A stretch of DNA of 64,000 nt from an uncultured delta proteobacterium (GTDB lineage Bacteria; Desulfobacterota; Binatia; Binatales; Binataceae): contig CAWEEQ010000004.1 in NCBI GenBank assembly GCA_963808235.1, forward strand, positions 781,084-845,083. The letters are read 5' to 3'. Shown one piece after another: positions 30,876 through 63,513 of the stretch (positions are counted from its first letter, which is position 1; the number at the start of each line of letters is the position of its first letter). A program made the translations under genes and the position numbers. The notes under the pieces are model-generated. The model searched no databases and was not told the DNA's origin. It saw only the letters and a list, made by a program, of their open reading frames with translations.

Positions 30876-31153
30876 TTCGCTGTATGACGTCACAGCTCAA
30901 ACGGTCGAAATCCTCGCGGTCGTCGCGAAATCAGAACTGTCGCGCTTTCCGCGGTTGGCAGAGAGGGCCAGGGGATCGAAATCTGGTTAAATTCAAGCCA
31001 TGAGCGGTGATGAAGGGAATATGGGGATCCGCCAAAAGGGTTTCACTGATACAAGAGCAATAATGAGGCTGCTTAAGGCTTGACTAATTTCTTGTCTTGC
31101 TCCATAGTGATGCTGCCACCGAAAGGGCGGGCAAAAACGGGGAAGGTAGGATA

Positions 31154-31399
31154 ATGCAACGATCACGAGAAAATGATGAGACTCAGCCGGAATTCTATAC
31201 TGTCGGCCAGCTCGCGGACTTGCTCCAACTGACGCCGATGACGATATACCGGATGGTCAGACGCGGCGAGCTCGCCTGTCATGCGATCGGGCGAATCAAA
31301 CGCTTTCGCCGCGGCGACGTAGAGACGTTCCTCGAGAATTCCAGGCAGCCGGCCTCGGAAGCCACCGCGGCTCCGGCTCCTCGCCGTCTCGATGGCTGA
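31154..31399 (+). CDS. excisionase-family (HTH_17, MerR-superfamily) DNA-binding protein, paralog 1
   Basis: 81 aa from the ATG at 31154 (AGGTAGG upstream); FYTVGQLADLLQLTPMTIYRMVRRGELACHAIGRIKRFRRGDVETFL. Confidence 0.8.
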   Translation: MQRSRENDETQPEFYTVGQLADLLQLTPMTIYRMVRRGELACHAIGRIKRFRRGDVETFLENSRQPASEATAAPAPRRLDG

Positions 31400-31663: not shown

Positions 31664-31882
31664 ATGCAACGCTCACGTCCGAAAGAAGACGCCCAGCCCG
31701 AGTTCTACACCGTTGGACAACTTGCCGATTTGCTGCAACTCACACCCATGACCATTTACCGCATGGTCAGGCGCGGCGAGTTGGCTTGTCACGCGATCGG
31801 TCGCATCAAGCGTTTCAGACGCGGCGATGTCGAGGCTTTTTTACAAAGCTCGAGGAAACCAGCGGCAAGCGCACCAAGCTAA
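31664..31882 (+). CDS. excisionase-family (HTH_17) DNA-binding protein, paralog 2
   Basis: 72 aa. The core is identical in protein sequence to paralog 1 except for one residue. Confidence 0.8.
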   Translation: MQRSRPKEDAQPEFYTVGQLADLLQLTPMTIYRMVRRGELACHAIGRIKRFRRGDVEAFLQSSRKPAASAPS

Positions 31883-32115
31883 GACTTGCTCGTCTTACGC
31901 TCGGCGCCTGAATCGCCGTTGGTTTGGTGTTCCGGTTCCCTGGCTACGCTCCCGCCCGCCGCGACCCATTGATCGACGACTGGCACTTCAAAGCGCAGAT
32001 CCCGTCCAACTCTAATAGCCCGCAACTGGCCTCTTCGCACCAGCCTGCGAACGGTAGCCGGATTGACATGCAGGTAGTCGGAAACCTCACGCAATGTGAG
32101 CATCCTTGCTGGCAT
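31879..32115 (-). CDS. excisionase-family (HTH_17) DNA-binding protein, third copy, convergent
   Basis: MLTLREVSDYLHVNPATVRRLVRRGQLRAIRVGRDLRFEVPVVDQWV. The start is uncertain (32115, 32103 or 32160). Its stop codon overlaps the stop of 31664-31882. Confidence 0.7.
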   Translation of the reverse strand: MPARMLTLREVSDYLHVNPATVRRLVRRGQLRAIRVGRDLRFEVPVVDQWVAAGGSVAREPEHQTNGDSGAERKTSKS

Positions 32116-32355
32116 ATGCTCGCCCCTGGCTGACTCCATTCGACCCGGATTCATCCGCAAGCTCGCAAAAGTCTCATCAGGTTTGTCCTCGCCGTTTCGG
32201 TGACCGGAGGTGGCCGGAGGTCTCTAAATCTATTTGACTGTCTAATGCGCATTATCATTCAAATTACTTGACGACGACTCATCTATTGCTTGATGACCAT
32301 CATCTGCTTTCTCAAACGTAGCAAGATTTCAAAGACTAATCAAGCCATGAAAATA

Positions 32356-32384
32356 TTGTCAAGTTAAGATAAAGCTGTTAGAAT
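32356..32384 (+). promoter_or_regulatory. candidate sigma70 promoter of the EPS locus
   Basis: TTGTCA (32356-61), 17-nt spacer, TAGAAT (32379-84), inside a 360-bp AT-rich tract about 140 nt upstream of the Wza-like ATG. Confidence 0.4.
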
Positions 32385-32526
32385 TCTAAAGCGTGGCATC
32401 TTTATTTACTTTATTTTATGTCTCATTGCTTTGTTTATTCTTTTATGGTACAGTCTTACATAGCGTGCATCCCTTACGATTCATGCGTCGAATCGCGTAC
32501 TGACCTGAGCAGTGAGAAAAAAAACC

Positions 32527-33252
32527 ATGAAACGAAAACTATTGGTCATAGCTCTTCTGTGTTGTGCGCAGCTTCTGTTCGGATGCTCCGCGAAGGACCC
32601 GGAGGCTACCGATATCAAGGGTGTGTCGATGGCGCCGGTGTCGCCTGCCTGCCAATTCACTTCGGTCGACGACCAGTTTCGATCATACCGGATTCAGCCG
32701 GGCGACCAGCTCGACATCAGTTTTTATATGAGCCCCGAGTTTGACCAGGACCTGACCGTACGACCCGACGGCGACATCTCGATGCCGGTGGTCGGCAATA
32801 TTCACGTGCAGGGACTAACCCCGGTCGGGCTCGAGAAGAATCTCAATCAGCTCTATTCGCAGGAGTTGAAAGATCCGAAGACCACGGTCCGCATCGACAA
32901 GAGTCCAAGCCAGGTCGTGTACGTCGAGGGCCAGGTTGGCAAACCCGGCGCGGTGCCGCTGCAGCCCGGGATGACCGCGATCCAGGCGATCGCCGCGTCG
33001 GGCGGAATGAACGATAACGCCGGACCGAGCCGGGTGATTCTCATAAGACGCGACGCGTGCGGGAACGCGCACGGGCAGCCTCTCAAGCTCGACAAAGTGC
33101 TGAACCAGAAAAATAACGAAGAAGATGTGGCGCTGCTGCCTTCGGACATCGTGGTCGTACCGCGCAGCGGGATTGCCCAATTCGATCTCGACGTGAAGCA
33201 GTACGTGCGCGACGCGATGCCGGTCGAAGTCTACGCCGCGCCGCCATTTTGA
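32527..33252 (+). CDS. polysaccharide export outer-membrane lipoprotein (Wza/OPX family)
   Basis: MKRKLLVIALLCCAQLLFGCS lipobox. Poly_export motif: YRIQPGDQLDISFY...VRPDGDISMPVVGNIHVQGLT. SLBB-like: VYVEGQVGKPGAVPL. Confidence 0.85.
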   Translation: MKRKLLVIALLCCAQLLFGCSAKDPEATDIKGVSMAPVSPACQFTSVDDQFRSYRIQPGDQLDISFYMSPEFDQDLTVRPDGDISMPVVGNIHVQGLTPVGLEKNLNQLYSQELKDPKTTVRIDKSPSQVVYVEGQVGKPGAVPLQPGMTAIQAIAASGGMNDNAGPSRVILIRRDACGNAHGQPLKLDKVLNQKNNEEDVALLPSDIVVVPRSGIAQFDLDVKQYVRDAMPVEVYAAPPF

Positions 33253-53434: not shown

Positions 53435-53852
53435 TTCTATGACATATAGTTAGCACCAATCCGCGCCACCGAGTCGTAAGGATCCTCGCGATCGATCACC
53501 CCAATAGCTGGATTCGCGAACATCAGCGCGTCCTCGCGGGTATCGCCGGCAGGGCGCTGAAGCCCTGAGCCATGGCGACGCGCTCCGTCGTACCATTAGC
53601 TACGCCGCGTTTCGATTGCTCGATAGAAAGCCCGATCGCCAATCCAGTCAATATCGTTGAGTGTCAACGCGGCGACACTTTCTAGCTTTTCTTAATTTTT
53701 AGGTACAGGATTAATTGAAATCCACCCTTCCCCTTGTGTACCTACTTCACCCAAGACATTTCGAGAATTCGACTGCGGATTGTGTCCTTAGCGCGTTGAC
53801 CTGTTGACCGGTGCCGGCGTGTGTAGGGCGAGAGCTGGGGAGTAGCTCTGGT

Positions 53853-55274
53853 ATGGCAGATCGGTCGCGATGGCAGATTCCGGTTACAACGGTACCCGCA
53901 ATCGTACTTGTGTTGCTTGGTTACGATGGCTTGAACTCGCTCATTGGGGGAGCGCAGGCGATCGTTCCAACGCTGACTTACGTTTCAACATCGAATGGCG
54001 CGACCTTTTTCGTATCTCTTGATGGCAGAGATTCGGGGGCGGGTAGCTCGGGTTCTCCGTGGCGGACGATTCAAAAAGCGGCCGACACGTTGCAGCCCGG
54101 GCAGACCGCGATAGTAGCGGCCGGCAACTACGGCGAGCGGGTGGAGATTTCGCATTCGGGGACGCGGACGGCTCGGATCACATTACGAGCCGCGAGCGGT
54201 GCGGACGTTCAGCTCCTGGGCTTCGATCTTACCGGAAGCAACTGGGTGCTGAGCGGGTTTGATATCTCCACCCGCAGGAACGGGCGCCAGGGCTATGGGA
54301 TCCACGTGTCCGGTTCGGCCTCGCACGACATTATTCAGAACAACTACATCCATGAACTTTGCCGCGAGGGGATTTTCATGGAGTCGGGAGTCTCGTACAT
54401 TTCGGTTCTCAACAACCGCATCTGGCGGGCCGAGATGGCGGGTGCGCAGGTCGACGGCACCGACGACCTGATCGAAGGCAACGAAGTCTGGGGAACTCAG
54501 CAGGAGCCGGTCCGGGCCGGTGGAATCTATTCGGGATGCGTAACGCCCGACGGCGCCGACGCGGACGCGTTCCGCTTCTTCGGGCAGCATAACGTGTTCC
54601 GATCCAACTACGCGCACGACGTCTACACCGCGTTGCCGACCAACCCCGATCCGCATACCGACTGCTTTCAGACCTGGGGCAGCACCGCGATGAAGGTGGA
54701 CGACATCCTCATCGAGCGAAACGTCTGCCGCTGGCCGGTCGCGTCGACCAAGGTGGACGCGTCGACCGCGATGATCGAGGGAATCGACGGGCCGGTGGGA
54801 ACAGTGACCTTCCAGAACAACCAACTGTCGAATATGCGGCAGGGGATTGTCGTCGGGAATAAGGTCGAGGCGCTGAAGATCTACAACAACACCTGGGACC
54901 ACATCGTGGAAGAAGCGCTGATCTTCAACGACACGAGATCTCCTGCCGACGAGATCATCAACAATATTTTCTATGACGTCGGCGCTGGCGGCGATGCTTA
55001 CGCGTCGGTTCCGAGCGGCAGCCCGCTCTTCCGGAGCAACGTCTTCTACATGCCGGGCGGTGCCAGCGTTGGCACTTATCCGAGCGTGGAGCCCTATACA
55101 AGCGTCGATCCGAGGTTCGCCAACCCCGGCGACTCGACCGGTGCCGGCGCCGATCTGCATCTCCAGGAAAGCTCGCCGCTCAAGCGCTCCGGGGTAACGC
55201 TTCCCCAGGTTACCGATGACTACTACGGAACCAGCCGCGCCGGTGCGGCGTACTCAGTGGGTGCCGCGCGATGA
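53853..55274 (+). CDS. secreted right-handed parallel beta-helix protein (module-family gene A)
   Basis: Signal/anchor VTTVPAIVLVLLGY. FFVSLDGRDSGAGSSGSPWRTIQKAADTLQPGQTAIVAAGNYGE is a DUF1565/pectate-lyase-fold entry. Repeated N..I....G turns follow. A GTG at 53811 is an alternative start. Confidence 0.72.
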   Translation: MADRSRWQIPVTTVPAIVLVLLGYDGLNSLIGGAQAIVPTLTYVSTSNGATFFVSLDGRDSGAGSSGSPWRTIQKAADTLQPGQTAIVAAGNYGERVEISHSGTRTARITLRAASGADVQLLGFDLTGSNWVLSGFDISTRRNGRQGYGIHVSGSASHDIIQNNYIHELCREGIFMESGVSYISVLNNRIWRAEMAGAQVDGTDDLIEGNEVWGTQQEPVRAGGIYSGCVTPDGADADAFRFFGQHNVFRSNYAHDVYTALPTNPDPHTDCFQTWGSTAMKVDDILIERNVCRWPVASTKVDASTAMIEGIDGPVGTVTFQNNQLSNMRQGIVVGNKVEALKIYNNTWDHIVEEALIFNDTRSPADEIINNIFYDVGAGGDAYASVPSGSPLFRSNVFYMPGGASVGTYPSVEPYTSVDPRFANPGDSTGAGADLHLQESSPLKRSGVTLPQVTDDYYGTSRAGAAYSVGAAR

Positions 55275-55508
55275 TTGTCACTATGGGGACACCGTCGCGC
55301 GCAGTCGGCCGTGGACGGGCAGACCGGTTGCGCGATCCCTCATGTGTCAGGGGCGTAGCCTCTCTGCGACAGTTTGTTGCACCTTCCGCAAACAAGGAAC
55401 CAGTTGTCTTAGTGAGTTGTAGCGAATCACTACAACGCGCAACGGCACATTTCGTGCTCCGCAGACTTGTTGGATTCTCGCGTCGCTTTAGGTTGATCGG
55501 GTTCGCAT

Positions 55509-55583
55509 CGGAGCGTTGCTGTCGCTCCGGTGCGGACCAATTCAAAGCTCCAGCCGGAGCGTTGCTGTCGTTCCGGCGCGGAC
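55509..55583 (+). repeat. two copies of a 29-bp hairpin-forming direct repeat
   Basis: cggagcgttgctgtcgctccggtgcggac (55509-55537) and cggagcgttgctgtcgttccggcgcggac (55555-55583). Each folds as CGGAGCG-TTGCTGT-CG(C/T)TCCG. Confidence 0.85.
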
Positions 55584-55721
55584 GGAAACAAACGGAGCGC
55601 GCCGGCAAATGCCCCGCGCTCAGGGGAAAAGGAGTGCGACACTGATGTATCGGTAACTTGCGATGGAGTGCTGTCCATCGCAGGTACCGATCCCACATTG
55701 CACCAAAGCGTTTTTAAGTCA

Positions 55722-55755
55722 GGCGCCACGTGTTGCCTTTAGTGATCGTGGCGTC
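55722..55755 (+). promoter_or_regulatory. conserved 5'-UTR stem-loop upstream of gene B (second copy at 58031-58064 upstream of gene C)
   Basis: GGCGCCACG-[tgttgcctttagtgat]-CGTGGCGTC versus GGCACCGCG-[tgttgcctttagtggt]-CGTGGTGCC: a 9-bp stem kept by a compensatory G-C to A-T change and wobble swaps. GGGGGAG RBS follows. Confidence 0.55.
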
Positions 55756-55772
55756 GGGCTTGGGGGAGAAAA

Positions 55773-57860
55773 ATGGCAACAGAAAAGGCCTTGGGCCTGC
55801 GCAGGCTAATCCTTGTCGCGGCGATCGGATTTCTTCTGATCCTGCTCGGTCACAGCCGGGCATACGCTGCGAGTCCCATCCACATTAACAAACCGGCACC
55901 CGACTCGGTCGTCTCCGACTTGGTGACCACGCTGGTTCGGGTCAAGCCGAAGGTCGCCAAGATAGTTTTCATGCTCGATGGCAACCCGCTGTCGACCACT
56001 ACCTCAACCAGCTTCACCTGGAATTCGGCGACGGTTGCGAACGGGATGCATACCATCGCCGCCAGCGCCTACTCTTCATCCAACCAGTTGCTGAAGACGG
56101 TCACCGAGCAAATCAGAGTTGCGAACAAAAAACCTCCTCCGCCGACTCGTACTCCGACGCCAACCTCCACGCCGACGGCCACCCCGGTGCTTTCGTTCGT
56201 GTCTCCGACCAGCGGGCAGACGCTCAGCGGATCGATAAGCGTCGCGCTGTCATTCTCGAGCCCACCATCGCAAACCAACCCTGGCGCGGTTTGGTGGACC
56301 GAATTGTCCGTCGACGGTGCACCGGTGGTTTCCGGATACAACAATTTGCCCTGGGACACGACCACGGTCGGCAACGGATCGCATACCTTGCGCGTGGATG
56401 GTTACGCGTACAACGGGACAACTTCGATCGGCAATGCGACCATCAACGTGACGGTCAACAACTCGGGCGTAACCGCAACTCCGACGGCTTCATCGACGCC
56501 CACGATCGGCCCGACGCCGACCGTGACCGCTACACACACGGGCACCCCAACCACCGCTCCGACGCCGACTGCGACACGAACGGCGACTCCGACTCTCGGC
56601 GCGACACCGACTGCGACGTCCACCCTGCACGCGACCCCGACTGCGACGTCAACGCCGGGCGGATGCGTCAGCATCACGGCACCGGCTCCCAGCGCGACCG
56701 TCAATGGCATCGTGGCCATCAACACTAACGACACTTGCTCAGGCGCCTGGTTTGAATCGCTCTACGTCGACGGCGCGCATGTTTCCGACTTTCCGGTCGG
56801 ACAGATCATGTTCACGAGCACTAGCTACGCCAACGGGATGCACACCATCCAGGTGACCAGCCAGAGCACCAATCCGGGTTCGGTCCAGCTTGGCAGCGCG
56901 TCCGAAGCGTTGAACGTGCAGGCGGGTTCGGCGACCAAGACAGCCACCGCGACGCCTACCACGAAGCCGAGCGCGACGCCGACGCCGGGAGGGGGCCATT
57001 ACTCAATGATGGGACCCGGAGCGTCTCTGCCGAGCGAAGCGGCTTGCGTCAGCGCGGTGAACGCGTCGCCTATTCCGGAGAACGCGCCGTGGAACCAGGA
57101 CGACGGCACCGGCTTTAACTCGAATCTGCCTCCATCCGGCGGTGTGCCGGCGTACTTCTACGCCAACGCGCCGTGCTGCAACGAATTGCCGCATGCGGAT
57201 TTTGCCAACGTCGACGGAAACTATTCGGGCTCCACAGATGACCTCATCCGAATCACCGCCTGCAAGTGGGGTATCGACGAAGACTACGTGCGCTCGCAGG
57301 CGTGGATCGAATCCGATTGGCATCAGGACTGCTCCGCGGCGCATGGCGGCTCCGACTGTCAGGAAGGCGGCGATATGGACAGCCCGAGCGGCGATCCGTC
57401 AGGCCTGGCGGTCACTTCGATATCGCCGGGAGGCGTATTCAGCGCCTTCAACGGATTTGGAAATCCCGGCGGCCCAACCGATCACTGGGATTCGTGGAGC
57501 ATCGTTCAGACCAAGGTGTACTACGAGTGGATGACGTGGCCGATGATGGAGGAGTCCACGCCTTTCGGGCTCGATTTTCGCTACGCGGAGATGCGCGGTT
57601 GCGTCAACGGCGATCAATATAGCTACTACAATAGCCAGTCATCCGCGCAGGGCACTGACTATCAGAATGCCGTCAATGCCGCCCGCAACAATCCGAACGG
57701 AGCATCGGCAGTCACAGGCTGGACCAACCTTCAGTACCTTTCGTACGGATGCATCGACACCCACTTTTCCGGCGACTGGTTCAACGGCACAGCCGACAGC
57801 TATCTGAACGAGTTCCTGAACAGGTTGGCAACCGCACCGTGGCCGGGCGGTCTGCAGTAG
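55773..57860 (+). CDS. secreted multidomain protein: 3 Ig-like modules, Thr/Pro linkers, Cys/Trp-rich C-terminal domain (gene B)
   Basis: Signal peptide ...LLILLGHSRAYAA. Three roughly 90-aa modules end in ...NGMHTI/NGSHTL... Linkers are TPTPTSTPTATP-type. The C-terminal roughly 310 aa contains AWIESDW ... WSIVQT and is otherwise unassigned. Confidence 0.7.
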   Translation: MATEKALGLRRLILVAAIGFLLILLGHSRAYAASPIHINKPAPDSVVSDLVTTLVRVKPKVAKIVFMLDGNPLSTTTSTSFTWNSATVANGMHTIAASAYSSSNQLLKTVTEQIRVANKKPPPPTRTPTPTSTPTATPVLSFVSPTSGQTLSGSISVALSFSSPPSQTNPGAVWWTELSVDGAPVVSGYNNLPWDTTTVGNGSHTLRVDGYAYNGTTSIGNATINVTVNNSGVTATPTASSTPTIGPTPTVTATHTGTPTTAPTPTATRTATPTLGATPTATSTLHATPTATSTPGGCVSITAPAPSATVNGIVAINTNDTCSGAWFESLYVDGAHVSDFPVGQIMFTSTSYANGMHTIQVTSQSTNPGSVQLGSASEALNVQAGSATKTATATPTTKPSATPTPGGGHYSMMGPGASLPSEAACVSAVNASPIPENAPWNQDDGTGFNSNLPPSGGVPAYFYANAPCCNELPHADFANVDGNYSGSTDDLIRITACKWGIDEDYVRSQAWIESDWHQDCSAAHGGSDCQEGGDMDSPSGDPSGLAVTSISPGGVFSAFNGFGNPGGPTDHWDSWSIVQTKVYYEWMTWPMMEESTPFGLDFRYAEMRGCVNGDQYSYYNSQSSAQGTDYQNAVNAARNNPNGASAVTGWTNLQYLSYGCIDTHFSGDWFNGTADSYLNEFLNRLATAPWPGGLQ

Positions 57861-57877
57861 TCGGCGAAAACGAAACA

Positions 57878-57914
57878 GTTGGGGGCGACTGGATACTCAG
57901 TCAGCGCCCCCAAC
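57878..57914 (+). terminator. GC-rich hairpin after gene B (candidate terminator, no U-tract on + strand)
   Basis: gttgggggcgact-ggatactc-agtc(ag)cgcccccaac, 18 nt after the stop. A second hairpin aaatgtc-actgtgga-gacattt lies at 57914-57935. Confidence 0.45.
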
Positions 57915-58082
57915 AAATGTCACTGTGGAGACATTTAGATAGTCAATAACGATAGTCAGAACCAGGCTGGAACGAGGTCCGATAGTAGGCGCTGGCTGTA
58001 GATTGCCGGGGAATTGGGTTTTTTAAGCCAGGCACCGCGTGTTGCCTTTAGTGGTCGTGGTGCCGGGCTTGGGGGAGAAAAA

Positions 58083-60323
58083 ATGGCAACGGAAAAGGCC
58101 TTGGGCCTGCGCGGGCTGCCGCTTGTCGCGACGGTCGGACTGTTTCTTATGCTGCTCGGTCACGGCCAGGCTTACGCGGCGGGTCCCATCCACATTAATG
58201 CGCCGGCCCCGGACGCGGTCGTCTCCGACATGGTGACGACATTGGTTCGGATCAAGCCGCAGGTCGCTCGGGTAGTTTTCCTGCTTGACGGCAACCTGTT
58301 GGCGTCGACTTCGTCCACCAGCTACACGTGGGATTCGGCGACGGTTGCGAACGGTATGCATACCATCGCGGCCAGCGCCTATACTTCATCCAATCAGTTG
58401 CTGCGCACTGTCTCCGAGCGAATCAGGATTGCGAACAAGCATAAACCGACTCCAACCCCCACTCCGACCACCACGCCGACTGTTACTGCCACTGCCACGA
58501 CCAACCCCACACCGACCGCGACTGCCACCTCGACACGGACGAGGACTCCAACTGTCACCGCGACGACGACCGCGAGTGCCACTGCGACACGAACGGCGAC
58601 TGCGACTGGGACACGAACGGCGAGCCCGACCCCGACTGCGACGTCAACGCCGGGCGGATGCGTCAGCATCACGGCACCGGCTCCCAGCGCGACCGTCAAT
58701 GGCATCGTGGCCATCAACACCAACGACACTTGCTCAAGCGCCTGGTTTGAATCGCTCTACGTCGACGGTGCGCATGTTGCCGATTTTCCGGTCGGACAGA
58801 TCATGTTCACGAGTACGAACTACGCCAATGGAATGCATACCATCCAAGTGACCAGCCAGAGCACCAATCCGGGTTCGGTCCAGCTTGGCAGCGCGTCCGA
58901 AGCGTTGAACGTGCAGCCGGGCGCCACGGCCACGCCGACATCAACCGCGACGCCAACGGCGACCTCCACATCGACTTCGTCGGTCCAGCCGACCCCGACG
59001 GCCACGTCGACGCCCAACGGCTCGACGTTCTACGTATCGCCAACCGGTAGCGACTCGGCGTCTGGCAGTTCGGGCTCACCATGGCGCACGATTCAGAAGG
59101 CAGCGGACACGCTGCTGGCGGGACAGACTGCGATCGTATCGGCAGGCAACTACGGCGAGCGCGTCTCGATCTCGCGCTCCGGCACGTCGTCCAGTCCGAT
59201 CACCTTGCAGGTCGCAAGCGGTGCGGATGCCCAACTCCTCGGCTTCGATCTCACAGGCAGCAACTGGGTTCTGGACGGCTTTGACATCTCGACCCAGACC
59301 AATGGCAGCGAAGGGTACGGGATCCACGTAGACGGTTCGGCCTCGTATGACACGATTCAGAACACCTATATCCATGAACTCTGCCACGAGGGCATTTTCA
59401 TGGAGTCAGGGGTCTCGCACATCTCGGTGCTGAACAACCGCATCTGGCGGGCCGAGATGGCAGGTGTGCAGGCCGATGGCGTGTACGATCTGATCGAGGG
59501 CAACGAAGTCTGGGACACTCAGCAGTATGCGATGAATGCGGGTGGAATTTACTCGGTGTGCACGATTGCCGGCGGCGCCGATGCGGACGCGTTCCGCTTC
59601 TTCGGCCAACATAATGAGTTCCGTTCTAACTACGCACACGACATTTACCACGATATGCCAGGCGATCCGCATCCTACCAATCCCAATCCTCACACCGATT
59701 GCTTCCAAACTTGGGGGAACTCTGCAATGACGGTGAGCGATATTCTATTTGATCGCAACCTTTGTCGCTGGCCAGGAACTAATCAATTTCAGCTTGCAAA
59801 TATAAATTCTACAACGCTTGCAAACATTGGGGTTAATGAAGGCGCAGTAACTAACTTAACCTTTCAAAACAACATACTCTCCAATTCAGGACAGGGAATA
59901 GATATTGAAGGTGGCGTTGGTCCAGTAAACGCTTATAACAATACTTTTGTTCATATAGCGCAGGAAGGATTAGTTTGTAATGGCGCTCGTACATCAGCGG
60001 ACCAGATCATGAACAACATTTTCTACGATGTTGGCGATGGTGGTGATTCGTACACTTCAGGCTGTCAGAATTCAACATTCAATAATAATGACTTCTACAT
60101 GCCGGGCGGCGTCAGCGTCGGCACCTATCCGAACGTCGAGCCGTACCTGAGCCTCGATCCGTTGTTCGTCAACTTCGGCGACGCGACCGGCGGCGGCGGG
60201 GATTTCCATCTGCAGTCCGGCTCGCCGCTAAAAGGCGCCGGGACCACGGTCTCGACCGTCACCAATGACTACTACGGCACCAGCCGGGTGGGGGCAGCAT
60301 ACTCAGTCGGCGCCGCTCAATGA
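58083..60323 (+). CDS. secreted multidomain protein: 2 Ig-like modules, Thr/Pro linkers, beta-helix domain (gene C)
   Basis: The N-terminus is colinear with gene B (MATEKALGLR...). The second Ig-like module is nearly identical to module 3 of gene B. The C-terminal roughly 440 aa is colinear with gene A (STFYVSPTGSDSASGSSGSPWRTIQKAADTL...). Confidence 0.75.
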   Translation: MATEKALGLRGLPLVATVGLFLMLLGHGQAYAAGPIHINAPAPDAVVSDMVTTLVRIKPQVARVVFLLDGNLLASTSSTSYTWDSATVANGMHTIAASAYTSSNQLLRTVSERIRIANKHKPTPTPTPTTTPTVTATATTNPTPTATATSTRTRTPTVTATTTASATATRTATATGTRTASPTPTATSTPGGCVSITAPAPSATVNGIVAINTNDTCSSAWFESLYVDGAHVADFPVGQIMFTSTNYANGMHTIQVTSQSTNPGSVQLGSASEALNVQPGATATPTSTATPTATSTSTSSVQPTPTATSTPNGSTFYVSPTGSDSASGSSGSPWRTIQKAADTLLAGQTAIVSAGNYGERVSISRSGTSSSPITLQVASGADAQLLGFDLTGSNWVLDGFDISTQTNGSEGYGIHVDGSASYDTIQNTYIHELCHEGIFMESGVSHISVLNNRIWRAEMAGVQADGVYDLIEGNEVWDTQQYAMNAGGIYSVCTIAGGADADAFRFFGQHNEFRSNYAHDIYHDMPGDPHPTNPNPHTDCFQTWGNSAMTVSDILFDRNLCRWPGTNQFQLANINSTTLANIGVNEGAVTNLTFQNNILSNSGQGIDIEGGVGPVNAYNNTFVHIAQEGLVCNGARTSADQIMNNIFYDVGDGGDSYTSGCQNSTFNNNDFYMPGGVSVGTYPNVEPYLSLDPLFVNFGDATGGGGDFHLQSGSPLKGAGTTVSTVTNDYYGTSRVGAAYSVGAAQ

Positions 60324-60372
60324 TGGGCGCGGAGGAGATCGAAGATAGTCAATAGCTATAGTCAGAATCAGT

Positions 60373-61695
60373 TCAGAGCGACGTCCGGTAATAGTGAATC
60401 GATTGCCGCAACCCGCCTCCGAGGCGGGTGCGGATGTACCCCAGCATCTCATTCGTCAGCAGGTACTTGGGGCGCAGATAAACGCCGCCATTGTTGAGCG
60501 AGAACAGGATGCGGTGGAATTTCCAGTTGTTGAAATTGCGCAGCAGCCGGAACCGCGCCGATACTCCCAGCGTCTGTATCCCGAAAGGGAACTTGAAGCC
60601 AAACCAAAGCGGCTGAGAATTGATCGCCAGGTCGGGCTCGGTCGAATTGTCTATTTCCTCGAGCGAACCCTCCGCCAACCTGAACCTGACCGTCTTGTCG
60701 AGGTCGGGTATCTGAATAGTCACTGGACGGAGCATCCGTAGCAGGAGCATCGAGTATTTGTCGCGCATCTGCGCGGCAAGACCGTCGTAAGCGGCAACAA
60801 TTTCAGGCATCGATTTGCTCTCGACCGGATCGTACGTGCGCTCATCGACGCTCGGCAGTTGATCGAATCGCGTCAGCGCATCCGACGAATCGTGTTCGGC
60901 GCCAACTTCGTAGATATCCCCCGGATACAGCACCACTGCGCGCTGACCTTGGCGGCTTAAATAATTGGCGGCGTCGCGCGCGGAATTCGCAAAATTATTG
61001 ACGTACTTGTTGTCGAGGCTCGAAAAGTAGATGAAGCTCGCAAACGGGATTGTCGCTTTCGCATCCAGGCCGCGATGCACTGAAGATACATTTTCGAGAA
61101 TCTGCGCAGCTCGCTGCGGCAGAAATTTCTCATGCGGCTCAAAGCCGGCGTAGGCGGCCAGCGAGAACTGATTAAGGAGAACATCGACGCGTCCGATGTC
61201 GTGCAGGATGCCCTTGCATTCGCCGGCGCTGATGCGTGCGTCGTTGGCGTTGAAGATGACTTGTCCTTTACTCAGTACCGCCAGCGCGGAGTCCATTATC
61301 CCGGCGTGATAGCAATATACTTTCGTCGCATCGGGCTTGCTGCTCAGCGATACGATCATCCGATGCGGCAGCCGCTGAAATCGCTCATAGCCAAGCTTGC
61401 GAAACGCCGCGAACATCTTTGTGTAATCGCGATCCTGAAAGAGGATCGTCACCCGCGCTTTGAAGTCAGCCGGAAATGATCCGAGGGTCGGGAAGTGACA
61501 ATGATCGGGATGCTCGTGCGAGATCCAGATGTACTCGACCTTGTCGAGCACCGCCTGGTCGAACTTTGGTTCCGGCAGCAGAGTCCATGAGTCGTTGAAA
61601 ATTTTTCCGAATAGCCAGGGATCCATCAGGATCGACGTGTCGGCGCATTCCGCGACGATGCATGCATGTCCGACAAAGTGAATTTTCATGAGCAC
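60373..61695 (-). CDS. MBL-fold metallo-hydrolase with long C-terminal extension (paralog 1)
   Basis: 440 aa; KIHFVGHACI...DPW...IWISHEHPDHCH (HxHxDH). The roughly 300-aa C-terminal part has no family I can name. Confidence 0.65.
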   Translation of the reverse strand: MLMKIHFVGHACIVAECADTSILMDPWLFGKIFNDSWTLLPEPKFDQAVLDKVEYIWISHEHPDHCHFPTLGSFPADFKARVTILFQDRDYTKMFAAFRKLGYERFQRLPHRMIVSLSSKPDATKVYCYHAGIMDSALAVLSKGQVIFNANDARISAGECKGILHDIGRVDVLLNQFSLAAYAGFEPHEKFLPQRAAQILENVSSVHRGLDAKATIPFASFIYFSSLDNKYVNNFANSARDAANYLSRQGQRAVVLYPGDIYEVGAEHDSSDALTRFDQLPSVDERTYDPVESKSMPEIVAAYDGLAAQMRDKYSMLLLRMLRPVTIQIPDLDKTVRFRLAEGSLEEIDNSTEPDLAINSQPLWFGFKFPFGIQTLGVSARFRLLRNFNNWKFHRILFSLNNGGVYLRPKYLLTNEMLGYIRTRLGGGLRQSIHYYRTSL

Positions 61696-62109
61696 TCTCC
61701 GGCAGATTCTGGAGGTCTCGCTTGGGCGTCTCTGAGTGTGGTTCCTAGAGCACGCCGCTTGCCCTAAAAGCGTAACATTAAAGTTTAGTCAAGGCAAATC
61801 AGTATAGGTCAATCTATTTAAAGTCACTCTCGATATTGACTAATTCTCAACTCACGTTAATTTAACTAGATTTTTGTTACTTGTGCTAGCTTCTAAAATC
61901 TGTTACTTTGGACCTAAGCCATTTGCAAGGGCCAGTGAGCGAGAAATGGTAAGAGAAACGGGATGTTTCAGGTCAATCTGGCCGTCAGTGTCGCAAACTT
62001 TGAACAAGGAACCGGGCTTGAGCGCTCGCAACATGCTTGAGCCGATAACATCTGTATCCAATGGGAAAGGGGGCGGCGTGGAGGAACACGGCCGCCGGGG
62101 GTTTAACCC

Positions 62110-63513
62110 GTGAAAGTGACCCTGGTTTCGCATGCTTCGGTGATAATTGAGTCACAAGGAGTCAGAATTTGGACTGACCCGTGGCTCACGGGCAAAGTCT
62201 TCAATGAATCGTGGTCGCTGTTTCCGCCGGCGGCATTTGATCCTGCGATGCTTGATTCGATCGACTACCTGTGGATTTCGCACATTCATCCGGATCACTT
62301 CCACATTCCAAGCCTGAATTCGCTTTCCCCGCAGTTCAAACGCCGGGTCAAGGTCCTGTTCCAGGACAATCACGCCGATCAACTTTTCGAAGTGATGAAA
62401 AAGTGCGGATACCAGAACTTCCAGGCGCTGCGGCATCGCCGGATGGAGTCTCTCAGCGAGCACACGTCAGTCTACTCCTACAGCGCCGGGACCCTGGATT
62501 CCTGCCTGGGCGTGATGGAGCCGGAAGGGGGCTTGTTCAACATCAACGACTCGCGGCTGAATGCGACCGATTGTCGTCGTGTGAAGTCGGACATGGGGCG
62601 GATAGACACGGTGCTGAGCCAGTTTTCGCTGGCGGTCTATAATGGTCTTCAACCGCGCGAATCTCATCTGCGCCGCGGCGCGGCGGCGATGTTGGAAAAG
62701 ATTTTCGATAATCACGCGAACCTGGGCGCCCGGATCACGATTCCGTTCGCGAGCATGATGCGTTTTTCGCTGGTCGACAATCGTTACATGAATGCATTTG
62801 CGAACCGTCCGCGCGACGTGTGGGAACATGCCGCCGTACGAGGTCTCGGGGTGGCGATCCTGTTCCCGGGCGACACTTACAATTCATCCACCAGCTACGA
62901 TTCGACCCAGGCGCTTGAAAAATACGACGCGGTCTACGAGACCATCGACCAGTTTCCCTACGACACGCCGGCGGCGGTCCCGCTGCAGCCGATCGAAGAA
63001 GCTTTCCACGAGATGGTACGCCATTTGCGTGAAAAGTATCCCGCGCCGATACTTCGGATGCTGCGCGGGGTGGTGGTGAAGTTGCCCGACCTCGACAAGA
63101 CCGTGGCGTTTTCGATTCCGGCCGACTCCTTCAGCGAAGTCGATTCGTCAGAGTCGCCCGACATCTTGATGTGTTCGCAGGCCCTGCATTTTTGTTTCTT
63201 CCGTCCGTACGGGCTGCAGACGCTCTCGAGCTCGGCGCAGCATACCGTGGTGCGCAACCTGGCGAATTGGCGGATCCATCGCGCGCTGTTCGCGCTGAAC
63301 AATGCGCAGGCATACGGCCGACTCCGCTATCTGCTTCGCCGCGACACCATAAGTTTTTTCGCGAAAAGAATTAGAGCCATGGTCCGTTACACCGACCTCA
63401 CCCACGCCCGGCTCAGATATCCGTACAGCTATAAGCCAAAGCATCACTCCAGCATCCCAACTGAGGCGGGGCAGGTAATGGGTCCGTTGGATCGATCCGG
63501 GCATTCGGAGTGA
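62110..63513 (+). CDS. MBL-fold metallo-hydrolase with long C-terminal extension (paralog 2)
   Basis: 467 aa, GTG start; KVTLVSHASV...DPW...LWISHIHPDHFH. Colinear with 60373-61695 over the whole length (LNQFSLA / LSQFSLA, IPFAS, PDLDKTV). Confidence 0.65.
   Translation: MKVTLVSHASVIIESQGVRIWTDPWLTGKVFNESWSLFPPAAFDPAMLDSIDYLWISHIHPDHFHIPSLNSLSPQFKRRVKVLFQDNHADQLFEVMKKCGYQNFQALRHRRMESLSEHTSVYSYSAGTLDSCLGVMEPEGGLFNINDSRLNATDCRRVKSDMGRIDTVLSQFSLAVYNGLQPRESHLRRGAAAMLEKIFDNHANLGARITIPFASMMRFSLVDNRYMNAFANRPRDVWEHAAVRGLGVAILFPGDTYNSSTSYDSTQALEKYDAVYETIDQFPYDTPAAVPLQPIEEAFHEMVRHLREKYPAPILRMLRGVVVKLPDLDKTVAFSIPADSFSEVDSSESPDILMCSQALHFCFFRPYGLQTLSSSAQHTVVRNLANWRIHRALFALNNAQAYGRLRYLLRRDTISFFAKRIRAMVRYTDLTHARLRYPYSYKPKHHSSIPTEAGQVMGPLDRSGHSE

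What the first reader, a model, noticed from the sequence alone, without database searches (positions are those of the whole stretch)
59590..60100. Intragenic low-GC patch (about 40% GC) inside the beta-helix domain of gene C
From about 59.6 to 60.1 kb the coding sequence switches to A/T-ending codons (aat, tta, ata, gga, caa). I counted 71 G+C in the 180 nt of 59761-59940. The flanks of the same gene and the colinear region of gene A (54660-55060) are GC-rich. The reading frame and colinearity with gene A are kept (DCFQTWG...FQNN.LSN...YNNT...NNIFYDVG...FYMPGG), but amino-acid similarity drops inside the patch. High GC and high similarity return right after atgccgggcgg at about 60100. This looks like a recombinational import of the last beta-helix turns from a lower-GC homolog. 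Those turns would be a plausible substrate-specificity region.
Basis: partly seen in the sequence, partly recalled or inferred. Interest (0 to 1): 0.62.

Follow-up and report, generated by a model that had tools for sequence, protein, structure and literature searches.

The report
Recombined low-GC segment in beta-helix gene
A roughly 480-base stretch encoding the last coils of a secreted sugar-acting beta-helix protein was swapped in by recombination from an unsampled, apparently AT-richer relative and then spread between related soil bacteria; it is a clean example of a known process, not a new mechanism.

Summary
Inside gene C (58083..60323, +), third-codon-position GC (GC3) falls from 0.76 to 0.38 between 59607 and 60089. 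This is the most extreme coding stretch in the window (z about -5). Amino-acid identity to the family-standard sequence drops at the same place (59649-60087; 0.85 to 0.51) and there are four in-frame indels.

The patch encodes the last ~5 coils of a Pel9A-like right-handed beta-helix. The protein is secreted and sits beside an exopolysaccharide gene cluster in a Binataceae-like soil bacterium.

Positional orthologues in at least five other Binataceae genomes carry the standard patch at normal GC. A small group of metagenome loci carries the variant patch. In eight independent assemblies of the window's subgroup, the tract ~59380-60320 is 97-99% identical, against ~83% in the surrounding DNA (dS 0-0.08 versus 0.46-0.67). 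Changes since then run 21 AT>GC to 7 GC>AT, against 26:37 in the flanks.

Misassembly, targeted hypermutation and a conserved rare-codon pause are excluded or disfavoured. The best reading is a segment replacement from a lower-GC homologue, a recent spread between lineages, and ongoing drift back to host composition. No donor was found, and the role in substrate specificity is untested. This is a mosaic gene, a known kind of event; interest is moderate.

The parts
58083..60323 (+). Gene C coding sequence (746 aa from the ATG; the ORF opens at TTG 58014). It has a signal-peptide-like N-terminus, Ig-like modules with Pro/Thr linkers, and a C-terminal right-handed beta-helix domain.
   Evidence: ORF and translation. 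The exact 746-aa product is on record from an NCBI/ENA 3.85-Mb contig. Pfam Big_7 and Beta_helix hits.
58083..59030 (+). N-terminal module: signal peptide, Big_7 Ig-like domain, PT-rich linkers and a second Ig-like domain. About 81-82% nt identical to parts of gene B.
   Evidence: Pfam; blastn of gene C against the rest of the window. The signal peptide is inferred from the sequence (…LLGHGQAYA/AG).
59031..60320 (+). Beta-helix domain (430 aa). AlphaFold2 model with mean pLDDT 91.8. The nearest solved folds are carbohydrate-active beta-helix enzymes.
   Evidence: model; Foldseek PDB: GH136 lacto-N-biosidases, PL9 Pel9A and rhamnogalacturonan lyase, PL6 alginate lyases. PF22842 Pel9A-like_beta_helix is precomputed on homologues.
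59607..60089 (+). The low-GC variant ('C-type') patch: 161 codons, GC3 0.38, about 51% aa identity to the family-standard ('A-type') consensus. It covers domain residues ~193-353 and holds the last ~5 coils of the helix.
   Evidence: Change-point fits for GC3 (59607/60089) and for aa identity (59649/60087); GC3 profiles; secondary structure.
59658..59672 (+). In-frame 5-codon insertion (PGDPH) relative to standard-patch genes, in a loop just upstream of the invariant motif.
   Evidence: Alignments; translation. Present in all variant-patch loci.
59679..59717 (+). NPNPHTDCFQTWG motif, whose N, H, D, C, Q and T are invariant across the 56-sequence family alignment. It is a candidate active-site motif. 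It lies inside the low-GC tract but is conserved between patch types.
   Evidence: Invariant columns N217, H221, D223, C224, Q226, T227; translation. The catalytic role is inference only.
59784..59819 (+). Most divergent loop of the patch (QFQLANINSTTL). It holds a 4-codon insertion (59784-59795) and a 1-codon insertion (59817-59819) relative to standard-patch genes. Model confidence is lowest here (pLDDT ~62).
59381..60320 (+). Tract recently shared among subgroup-C1 lineages. Near-identity starts at ~59381 (against L021) or ~59460 (against L020, L031). It is strongest up to ~60090 and still raised to the stop codon.
   Evidence: Positions of differences; identity profiles; dS by segment; Fisher tests for clustering of differences, p = 3e-14 and 9e-13.
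53853..55274 (+). Gene A (473 aa from ATG 53853; ORF from GTG 53811). It is a paralogue made of the beta-helix domain alone, with the standard patch at GC3 0.83. It serves as the internal comparator.
   Evidence: P0141 is identical to its beta-helix domain over all aligned columns and is on record as a 473-aa NCBI/ENA protein from a 3.85-Mb contig.
55773..57860 (+). Gene B: Ig-like N-terminal modules shared with gene C, plus an unrelated C-terminal domain with no Pfam match.
60373..61695 (-). Convergent metallo-beta-lactamase-fold gene. It is the synteny anchor that identifies positional orthologues of gene C in other genomes.
   Evidence: Pfam; tblastn synteny, 78-88% aa identity in L002, L003, L006, L008, L012; called genes in L024, L026, L031.

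Best explanation
Gene C is a mosaic gene. The segment that encodes the last ~5 coils of its beta-helix (about 59607-60089) is not the segment normally found at this locus. It belongs to a divergent 'C-type' class that replaced the family-standard 'A-type' segment by homologous recombination. The crossovers fell in the conserved blocks on either side: FRSNYAHD…NPNPHTDCFQTWG at the 5' end and FYMPGG at the 3' end.

The window's version of the patch (subgroup C1) has codon usage foreign to its host (GC3 ~0.35 against 0.72). The simplest explanation is that it spent its recent past in a genome of clearly lower GC, or in a mobile element.

After entering one Binataceae lineage, a somewhat larger tract (~59380-60320) spread by homologous recombination into sister lineages whose genomes are only ~83% identical. 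It is now drifting back towards host composition.

Shown: the composition step, the mosaic similarity pattern, the standard-patch state of positional orthologues, the near-identical tract across lineages, and the AT>GC bias of later changes.

Inferred: the low-GC donor, the order of events (import first, then spread), and any selective reason, such as altered recognition of the neighbouring cluster's exopolysaccharide.
For: 1. Composition and similarity break at the same two places: GC3 at 59607/60089 and aa identity at 59649/60087.

2. Divergence from standard-patch genes is far higher in the patch than in the flanks. For C against A, dN is 0.37 in the patch and 0.14-0.20 in the flanks. Within standard-patch genes the same stretch is at most as variable as the flanks (patch dN 0.06-0.155 against 0.13-0.19), so the excess is not due to looser constraint there. 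There are also four in-frame indels.

3. Genes at the same position (Ig domains + beta-helix, directly upstream of the convergent MBL-fold gene) in L002, L003, L006, L008 and L012 carry the standard patch with GC3 0.72-0.83. Their upstream flank is as close to gene C (0.74-0.86 aa identity) as that of subgroup C2 (0.87).

4. In the 3' tail, gene C is closer to standard-patch genes (0.75-0.82) than to C2 (0.68). This marks a second discordance at ~60095.

5. Window against L020, L021, L027 and L030 gives dS 0.46-0.67 at 59031-59380, 0.0 at 59600-59727, 0.05-0.08 in the patch and 0.09-0.15 downstream. Over ~12 kb of synteny, identity is 0.6-0.92 everywhere except 0.975-0.99 at 59600-60000.

6. 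Polymorphisms among C1 lineages inside 59600-60095 are 21 AT>GC to 7 GC>AT, against 26:37 in the flanks (Fisher p = 0.003).

7. Codon usage in the patch is the most atypical in the window.

8. The same junctions appear in eight independent assemblies from several sample accessions.
Against: No donor was found.
- The exhaustive HMMER search gave no representative more than 55% identical to the patch, and that best hit is a standard-patch family member.
- Phage, plasmid and viral collections gave nothing.

The variant amino-acid sequence also exists in subgroups C2 and C3 with GC3 of 0.51-0.60.
- C1-C2 divergence in the patch (dS ~1.0, dN 0.11) equals that in the flanks.
- A foreign donor of the C1 version would therefore have to be about as distant as a sister lineage. 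Alternatively, the low GC arose, or was kept, within the C1 line.

The recently shared tract includes normal-GC sequence on both sides of the patch. The lineage that seeded the spread therefore already carried the GC step.

Polarising changes by majority rule or three-taxon parsimony is approximate.
Confidence: 0.7

Rival explanations
1. The low GC arose in place. The variant patch is an old, divergent part of this orthologue group. In the C1 line it lost whatever keeps GC3 high elsewhere. One candidate is GC-biased gene conversion with paralogues or orthologues, from which a segment this divergent would be excluded. It then drifted towards the AT-biased mutational equilibrium. The near-identity among C1 lineages is a later, separate recombination event.
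For: - C1-C2 divergence in the patch equals that of the flanks (dS ~1.0, dN 0.11).
- All three variant-patch subgroups show some GC3 dip exactly in the divergent segment (0.35, 0.60, 0.51).
- At shared synonymous sites, 13 are AT only in C1 against 2 that are GC only in C1. C2 and C3 share the same G/C base in 12 of those 13.
- The compositional change is confined to third positions, with no shift in amino-acid composition.
Against: - No known mechanism confines AT drift to ~480 bp while flanks in the same gene stay at GC3 0.76-0.9.
- Single-copy genes in the window keep GC3 0.6-0.84 without any paralogue to convert with.
- Changes since the spread run 3:1 towards GC, so the patch is not at a local AT-rich equilibrium.
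- This reading does not explain the excess dN and the indels relative to standard-patch genes at the same locus.
Confidence: 0.12
2. The AT-rich, rare-codon tract is kept by selection. It could act as a translational slow-down that helps the beta-helix fold or be secreted, as a way to avoid mRNA structure, or as an embedded promoter, antisense element or binding site for a nucleoid protein.
For: - The patch is enriched in codons that are rare in the host: TTA 2%, ATA 11%, TCT 5%, GCA 12% of their families.
- Synonymous sites are nearly invariant among C1 lineages (dS 0-0.08).
- A GC3 dip at this place is seen in all three variant-patch subgroups.
Against: - All 14 standard-patch and distant-subfamily loci compared, including the positional orthologues, have no dip with the same fold.
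- The low dS extends into normal-GC sequence on both sides (59381-59600 and 60095-60320), as expected for a recombination tract rather than a constrained element.
- Later changes are biased towards GC.
- There is no Rfam match at E<=1, and promoter-like sites are at the chance level (1 found, 1.0 expected).
Confidence: 0.08
3. Targeted hypermutation of this segment, either by a diversity-generating retroelement or by cytosine deamination of one strand.
For: Differences from the standard-patch consensus are enriched for GC>AT (73 against 20) and for transitions (70 of 118).
Against: - The window holds no second (template) copy of the patch; only gene A matches, at 68-79%.
- G>A (30) and C>T (24) are balanced, so there is no strand asymmetry. 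There are 48 transversions and four in-frame indels.
- The beta-helix repeat motifs are retained and dN/dS between C1 and C2 is ~0.11, which indicates long purifying selection.
- The sequence is stable across eight assemblies.
Confidence: 0.02
4. Assembly chimera or contamination: reads from a lower-GC organism were joined into gene C.
For: None beyond the composition step itself.
Against: - Identical junctions and an intact reading frame occur in independent assemblies: L020, L021, L024, L026, L027, L030 and L031. They come from several JGI and ENA sample accessions, and L031 is a 215-kb contig.
- The window's gene products are on record from a 3.85-Mb contig.
Confidence: 0.01

Closest known systems
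Mosaic genes formed by partial (intragenic) horizontal transfer. Examples are the mosaic penicillin-binding-protein genes of Streptococcus and Neisseria. The general concept and its detection are described in Boc & Makarenkov 2011, PMC3241670 (found; the examples are from my own knowledge).
   Same: A block inside a conserved gene is replaced by homologous recombination with a diverged homologue. The crossovers lie in conserved sequence. The block is far more divergent than the flanks and is then passed between related species.
   Different: No donor species is known here and the selective agent is unknown. The block is also marked by a strong codon-usage step, which the classic pbp mosaics do not show.
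Amelioration of horizontally acquired DNA (Lawrence & Ochman 1997; cited from my own knowledge).
   Same: Atypical third-position composition in a foreign segment, with a directional excess of substitutions towards host composition (21 AT>GC against 7 GC>AT).
   Different: The classic cases are whole genes or islands. Here the unit is ~480 bp inside a gene. Sister subgroups differ in how far they have shifted (GC3 0.35, 0.51, 0.60), which a single import with uniform amelioration does not explain.
Exchange of specificity modules in beta-helix glycan-acting proteins, such as phage tailspike or depolymerase domains, and the low-GC O-antigen and capsule loci (from my own knowledge).
   Same: A right-handed beta-helix carbohydrate-active fold next to a Wzx/Wzy-type polysaccharide cluster. 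The family is modular, with shuffled N-terminal Ig modules and a variable gene array.
   Different: Here only part of the helix was exchanged, not a whole receptor-binding domain. Phage and viral collections gave no match. No change of substrate has been shown.
PL9 pectate lyase Pel9A and related beta-helix enzymes (PDB 1RU4; GH136 LnbX 5GQC; PL6 alginate lyases).
   Same: Overall fold: Foldseek E 6e-10 to 1e-5 and TM-score 0.5-0.63 on the query. The N-terminal cap motif matches by sequence. Pfam PF22842 and PF13229 are found on homologues.
   Different: Sequence identity is only 13-16%. Sequence alignment to solved structures covers the N-terminal cap only, so the catalytic residues could not be matched. 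The enzyme class (lyase, hydrolase or epimerase) is undetermined.

Membership tests
Mosaic gene / partial horizontal gene transfer | Similarity or phylogeny disagrees between adjacent segments of one gene | tested here: met
   aa identity of gene C for upstream / patch / downstream: 0.86/0.52/0.76 to L003 and 0.87/0.83/0.68 to L022c. dN against gene A is 0.37 in the patch and 0.14-0.20 in the flanks.
Mosaic gene / partial horizontal gene transfer | Statistically supported breakpoints | tested here: met
   Change-point fits: GC3 at 59607/60089 (LLR 39.9; permutation maximum 9.7) and aa identity at 59649/60087 (LLR 27.1). Standard tools (GARD, 3SEQ, RDP) were not run.
Mosaic gene / partial horizontal gene transfer | The ancestral (unreplaced) state is seen at the same locus in relatives | tested here: met
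   L002, L003, L006, L008 and L012 have an Ig + beta-helix gene directly upstream of the convergent MBL-fold gene, with the standard patch at normal GC3.
Mosaic gene / partial horizontal gene transfer | An identified donor lineage | tested here: not met
   No closer relative of the patch than the family itself turned up: best representative 55% in the search of 1.84 billion; nothing in phages, plasmids or viral contigs; only variant-patch orthologues in metagenomes.
Recent inter-lineage homologous recombination (gene-segment sweep) | A tract with much lower synonymous divergence than the genomic background in several lineages | tested here: met
   dS is 0-0.08 in 59600-60095 and 0.46-0.67 in 59031-59380. 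Identity is 0.975-0.99 there and 0.6-0.92 over 12 kb of synteny. Fisher p = 3e-14 and 9e-13. Whether selection drove the spread was not tested.
Amelioration of foreign DNA | Atypical composition concentrated at synonymous positions | tested here: met
   GC1/GC2/GC3 is 0.47/0.39/0.35 in the patch and 0.54/0.38/0.83 in gene A. Amino-acid class fractions are unchanged. The codon-usage index is ~5 sd below the host.
Amelioration of foreign DNA | Later substitutions biased towards host composition | tested here: met
   21 AT>GC against 7 GC>AT in the patch and 26 against 37 in the flanks, p = 0.003. Polarity was assigned by majority rule among six sequences.
Pel9A-like / right-handed beta-helix carbohydrate-active enzymes | Pfam Beta_helix or Pel9A-like match, and a parallel beta-helix fold | tested here: met
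   PF13229 scores 28.7 bits on gene C (cut-off 25.9). PF22842 is precomputed on close homologues. The AF2 model has pLDDT 91.8. Foldseek hits are GH136, PL9 and PL6 enzymes. DUF1565 is below its cut-off on gene C (16.8 < 20.3) but above it on gene A.
Pel9A-like / right-handed beta-helix carbohydrate-active enzymes | Catalytic residues of a defined CAZy family (for example the Ca-binding Asp cluster and catalytic Lys of PL9) | tested here: inconclusive
   Profile search against PDB sequences aligns only the N-terminal cap. An invariant H/D motif (NPNPHTDCFQTWG) exists but could not be equated with known catalytic residues.
Diversity-generating retroelement variable region | A nearby template repeat ~90% identical, with adenine-specific differences, plus a reverse transcriptase | tested here: not met
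   The 64-kb window has no second copy of the patch. The substitution spectrum is not adenine-specific. The rest of the genome was not available.
Conserved rare-codon cluster (co-translational folding pause) | The cluster is conserved in position across homologues with the same fold | tested here: not met
   All 14 standard-patch and distant-subfamily loci have GC3 of ~0.57-0.95 across this stretch. Only variant-patch genes dip.

The most novel reading that the evidence does not exclude
The last coils of this beta-helix act as an exchangeable specificity cassette for an enzyme that works on the exopolysaccharide made by the adjacent cluster. The AT-rich allele would be a recent adaptive introgression that swept, as a sub-genic unit, through several soil Binataceae species (~83% identical) in widely separated sites. 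It would be a free-living bacterial counterpart of the cassette exchange seen in phage receptor-binding proteins, perhaps driven by glycan diversification or phage pressure.
Probability: 0.25. Interest if true: 0.55.

Novelty: new member of a known kind. Interest (0 to 1): 0.4.

Why it matters
This is an unusually clean natural example of sub-genic horizontal transfer in an uncultured soil lineage. Binatia/Binatota are known only from metagenomes (PMC8262859, found).

Both breakpoints are resolved to within tens of bases. The unreplaced state is preserved at the same locus in relatives. The replaced tract is caught in the act of spreading across species-level boundaries and shifting towards host composition.

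If the exchanged coils set substrate specificity, they would point to the part of this uncharacterised, DUF1565-containing, Pel9A-like family that reads the glycan. They would also offer ready-made chimeras for testing.

There is a practical point as well. In one assembly a 1-bp insertion near the start of the patch splits the gene call, and three others carry similar 104-aa calls whose cause was not checked. Annotation pipelines may therefore mis-handle such steps.

It does not reveal a new mechanism.

Tried and rejected
- Donor search with the patch protein. The word-indexed search found one variant-patch fragment (P0001, 85% identity) among 13 hits; the six next-best, inspected, carry the standard patch. 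The exhaustive HMMER search over 1.84 billion representatives gave a best hit of 55%, which is a standard-patch family member. P0015 and P0016 (47-48%) share a few motifs but are not donors.
- A profile built from six variant patches returned nothing at E<=1e-5, although single-sequence searches had worked. I treat this as a tool limitation, not as evidence.
- Phage, plasmid and viral-contig searches gave no match, so there is no support for a phage or plasmid origin.
- Genome scan: all 14 intact family genes from representative genomes that were translated, mostly Binataceae MAGs, carry the standard or a distant-subfamily patch at normal GC. None is a low-GC relative.
- DGR or template repeat: the window has no second copy.
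- One-strand deaminase signature: rejected because G>A and C>T are balanced and there are transversions and indels.
- RNA family, promoter and terminator scans of 59300-60450 found nothing above chance.
- A shift in amino-acid composition, as a sign of long residence in an AT-rich genome, was not seen (FYMINK 0.33 against 0.31). This is uninformative because the region is already rich in Asn and Ile.
- A3/T3 preference among AT-ending codons, patch against host, is borderline (p = 0.05) and not used.
- Three-taxon parsimony to decide whether the low GC3 of C1 is ancestral or derived is ambiguous without a usable outgroup, because synonymous sites against standard-patch genes are saturated.
- Matching catalytic residues to Pel9A by sequence failed, because only the N-terminal cap aligns.
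- Looking up the source record of gene A's product (P0141) by exact sequence failed. Cluster look-up showed only that genes A and C are on a 3.85-Mb NCBI/ENA contig.
Full report
OBSERVATION

Gene C is the ORF 58014..60323 on the + strand. Its product from ATG 58083 (746 aa) is on record from a 3.85-Mb NCBI/ENA contig.

Sliding windows of 200 nt give 0.395-0.48 GC between 59600 and 60099. The flanks give 0.55-0.675 and the window mean is 0.591. The drop is almost entirely at third codon positions. GC3 falls to 0.2-0.4, while the colinear part of gene A stays at 0.72-0.96. GC2 and the amino-acid class fractions do not move.

A two-change-point likelihood fit on GC3 puts the boundaries at 59607 and 60089. 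GC3 is 0.38 inside and 0.76 outside. The LLR is 39.9, against a maximum of 9.7 in 100 permutations. An independent fit on amino-acid identity to the family consensus puts them at 59649 and 60087, with identity 0.51 inside and 0.85 outside.

The patch has the lowest GC3 of 2284 windows of 123 codons from 33 ORFs (0.35 against 0.723 +/- 0.076). It also has the most atypical codon usage.

WHAT THE GENE IS

Gene C has these parts:
- a signal-peptide-like N-terminus;
- Ig-like (Big_7) modules joined by Pro/Thr linkers, ~81-82% nt identical to gene B;
- a 430-aa right-handed beta-helix domain that is paralogous to gene A.

The AlphaFold2 model of the domain is confident (pLDDT 91.8). The nearest solved folds are GH136 lacto-N-biosidases, the PL9 enzymes Pel9A and rhamnogalacturonan lyase, and PL6 alginate lyases. 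Close homologues carry Pfam Pel9A-like_beta_helix. Sequence alignment to solved structures reaches only the N-terminal cap, so the enzyme class is open.

Upstream lies a Wzx/Wzy-type polysaccharide cluster with a priming sugar transferase, flippase-like protein, GT4, Wzy_C and UppS. The family is found mostly in Binataceae MAGs, so the host is inferred to be a Binataceae-like soil bacterium.

The patch covers domain residues ~193-353. It starts just before an invariant NPNPHTDCFQTWG motif and runs through the last ~5 coils, ending at FYMPGG.

THE PATCH IS A VARIANT CLASS FOUND IN FEW GENES

All 14 intact homologues recovered from representative genomes have GC3 of about 0.57-0.95 across this stretch. 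Eleven of them carry a standard 'A-type' patch sequence and three belong to a distant subfamily.

The variant 'C-type' sequence has +5, +4 and +1 codon insertions and a 1-codon deletion. It was found only in metagenome loci, in three subgroups:

| Subgroup | Members | Patch GC3 |
|---|---|---|
| C1 | window, L020/L024, L021, L026, L027, L030, L031 | ~0.35 |
| C2 | L022, L025, L028, L029 | ~0.60 |
| C3 | L023, L001 | ~0.51 |

Synteny shows that L002, L003, L006, L008 and L012 have an Ig + beta-helix gene at the same position as gene C, directly upstream of the convergent MBL-fold gene. These genes carry the standard patch.

Gene C's upstream flank is as close to these positional orthologues (0.74-0.86 aa identity) as to C2 (0.87). 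Its 3' tail is closer to them (0.69-0.76; 0.82 to P0107) than to C2 (0.68). Its patch is 0.50-0.54 identical to them and 0.83 to C2.

Patch dN against gene A is 0.37, against 0.14-0.20 in the flanks. Within standard-patch genes the same stretch is at most as variable as the flanks (patch dN 0.06-0.155 against 0.13-0.19). The patch therefore has a different history from the rest of the gene. It is a segment replacement.

RECENT MOVEMENT BETWEEN LINEAGES

L020 and L031 are syntenic with the window over ~12 kb, covering genes A, B, C and both MBL-fold genes. Identity is 0.6-0.92 throughout, except for 0.975-0.99 at 59600-60000.

The synonymous divergence between the window and L020, L021, L027 and L030, by segment, is:

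| Segment | dS |
|---|---|
| 59031-59380 | 0.46-0.67 |
| 59380-59600 | 0.04-0.16 |
| 59600-59727 | 0.0 |
| patch | 0.05-0.08 |
| downstream to the stop | 0.09-0.15 |

The 5' edge of near-identity differs between partners: ~59381 for L021 and ~59460 for L020 and L031. The sharp 3' fall is at ~60090 in all of them. The clustering of differences is highly significant (p = 3e-14 and 9e-13).

This is the signature of a recombination tract that spread among lineages long after they diverged. It also rules out misassembly, because the same junctions occur in eight independent assemblies.

DIRECTION OF CHANGE SINCE THEN

Among six C1 sequences, differences inside 59600-60095 are 21 AT>GC against 7 GC>AT. 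In the flanks the counts are 26 against 37 (Fisher p = 0.003). The patch is therefore out of compositional equilibrium and is moving towards host GC. A recent arrival from an AT-richer background would behave this way. A segment held AT-rich by selection or by a local mutational bias would not.

WHAT REMAINS UNRESOLVED

No donor was found.

The variant patches of C2 and C3 differ from the C1 version by no more than their flanks do (dS ~1.0, dN ~0.11), yet they have much higher GC3. One old import followed by uniform amelioration does not explain this.

Two readings remain. In the first, the C1 version spent time in a lower-GC genome and came back, or was imported again. In the second, the subgroups have ameliorated at very different rates.

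Three-taxon parsimony gives 13 sites that are AT only in C1 against 2 that are GC only in C1, and 24 sites that are AT in all three. This fits either a derived AT enrichment in C1 or a shared GC gain in C2 + C3. It cannot be rooted, because synonymous sites against standard-patch genes are saturated.

The tract that spread includes normal-GC sequence on both sides, so the lineage that seeded the spread already had the step. I therefore infer this order of events: replacement by a variant segment; an AT-rich version present in one C1 lineage; spread of ~0.7-0.9 kb to sister lineages; amelioration now under way.

RIVALS

- In-place AT drift: it has no mechanism for a 480-bp limit and is contradicted by the AT>GC bias.
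- Selection for a rare-codon or regulatory tract: absent from the 14 standard-patch and distant-subfamily loci compared; the low dS extends into normal-GC flanks; Rfam and promoter scans found nothing above chance.
- DGR or deaminase hypermutation: no template copy, a strand-symmetric spectrum, transversions and indels.
- Assembly chimera: refuted by the independent assemblies.

COMPARISON AND VERDICT

This is a mosaic gene made by partial horizontal transfer, with later spread between species and amelioration. All of these are established processes. The concept is covered in PMC3241670; the pbp mosaics and Lawrence-Ochman amelioration are cited from my own knowledge. It is a new member of a known kind.

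It is well resolved, and it occurs in an uncultured lineage (Binatota; PMC8262859). Interest is moderate (0.4).

Noticed in passing
window 32200-32500: This is the lowest-GC stretch of the window outside gene C (0.345-0.415). It is non-coding and lies just upstream of ORF 32512..33252, a putative polysaccharide-export (Wza-like) gene by my reading of its sequence; no family scan was run on it. The stretch looks like an ordinary AT-rich promoter or regulatory region.
   Followed up: partly
window 31097..31399 (+), 31664..31882 (+), 31879..32160 (-): Three small ORFs that look like excisionase/MerR-type HTH proteins by my reading; no family scan was run. Two share an almost identical core (PEFYTVGQLADLLQLTPMTIYRMVRRGELACHAIGRIKRFRRGDVE). 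They may be remnants of integrated elements or a small regulator family just upstream of the polysaccharide cluster.
   Followed up: no
window 60373..61695 (-) and 62110..63513 (+), with the intergenic 61700-61950: Two divergently arranged metallo-beta-lactamase-fold (Lactamase_B_3) paralogues, ~43% identical to each other, are conserved next to the beta-helix genes in all related loci. The AT-rich spacer between them is poorly conserved: 0.35-0.48 aligned identity to L020 and L026.
   Followed up: partly
L002-L012, L020, L031 compared with window 53800-61700: The gene array differs between Binataceae genomes. The window, L020 and L031 have A-B-C-MBL. L007, L009 and L011 have A-B-MBL with no gene C. 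L002, L003, L006, L008 and L012 have an Ig + beta-helix gene with the standard patch, followed by MBL. N-terminal Ig modules are also shuffled: C2 genes carry gene-B-like second Ig domains.
   Followed up: partly
L031 4242-6315 (window equivalents 59117, 59190, 59735); P0211-P0214: In the 215-kb contig L031, gene C has three 1-bp indels, one of them at 59735 near the start of the AT-rich patch, and it is called as two genes. L031 and three other assemblies carry 104-aa calls that start at the internal Met at 60009; the cause in those three was not checked. This could be long-read homopolymer error, gene-caller behaviour at the composition step, or real pseudogenisation.
   Followed up: partly
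window 56970-57860 (gene B, C-terminal ~290 aa): The C-terminal domain of gene B has no Pfam match, yet it is 86-88% aa identical in L007, L009 and L011. It is a conserved, uncharacterised secreted domain that shares N-terminal modules with gene C.
   Followed up: no
window ~54580-54700 (gene A, colinear with 59600-59727): Between gene A and its L020 orthologue, dS is only 0.14 in this short stretch, which encodes FRSNYAHD…NPNPHTDCFQTWG. Elsewhere in the gene it is 0.43-1.0. This could mean a synonymous constraint or a recurrent recombination junction at the conserved motif.
   Followed up: no
L001 638-691 compared with window 57811-57864: The sequence just downstream of the variant-patch gene in the C3 contig L001 resembles the 3' end and downstream spacer of gene B in the window (82% over 55 nt). 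This suggests shared intergenic sequence within these tandem arrays, which could serve as a substrate for rearrangement.
   Followed up: no
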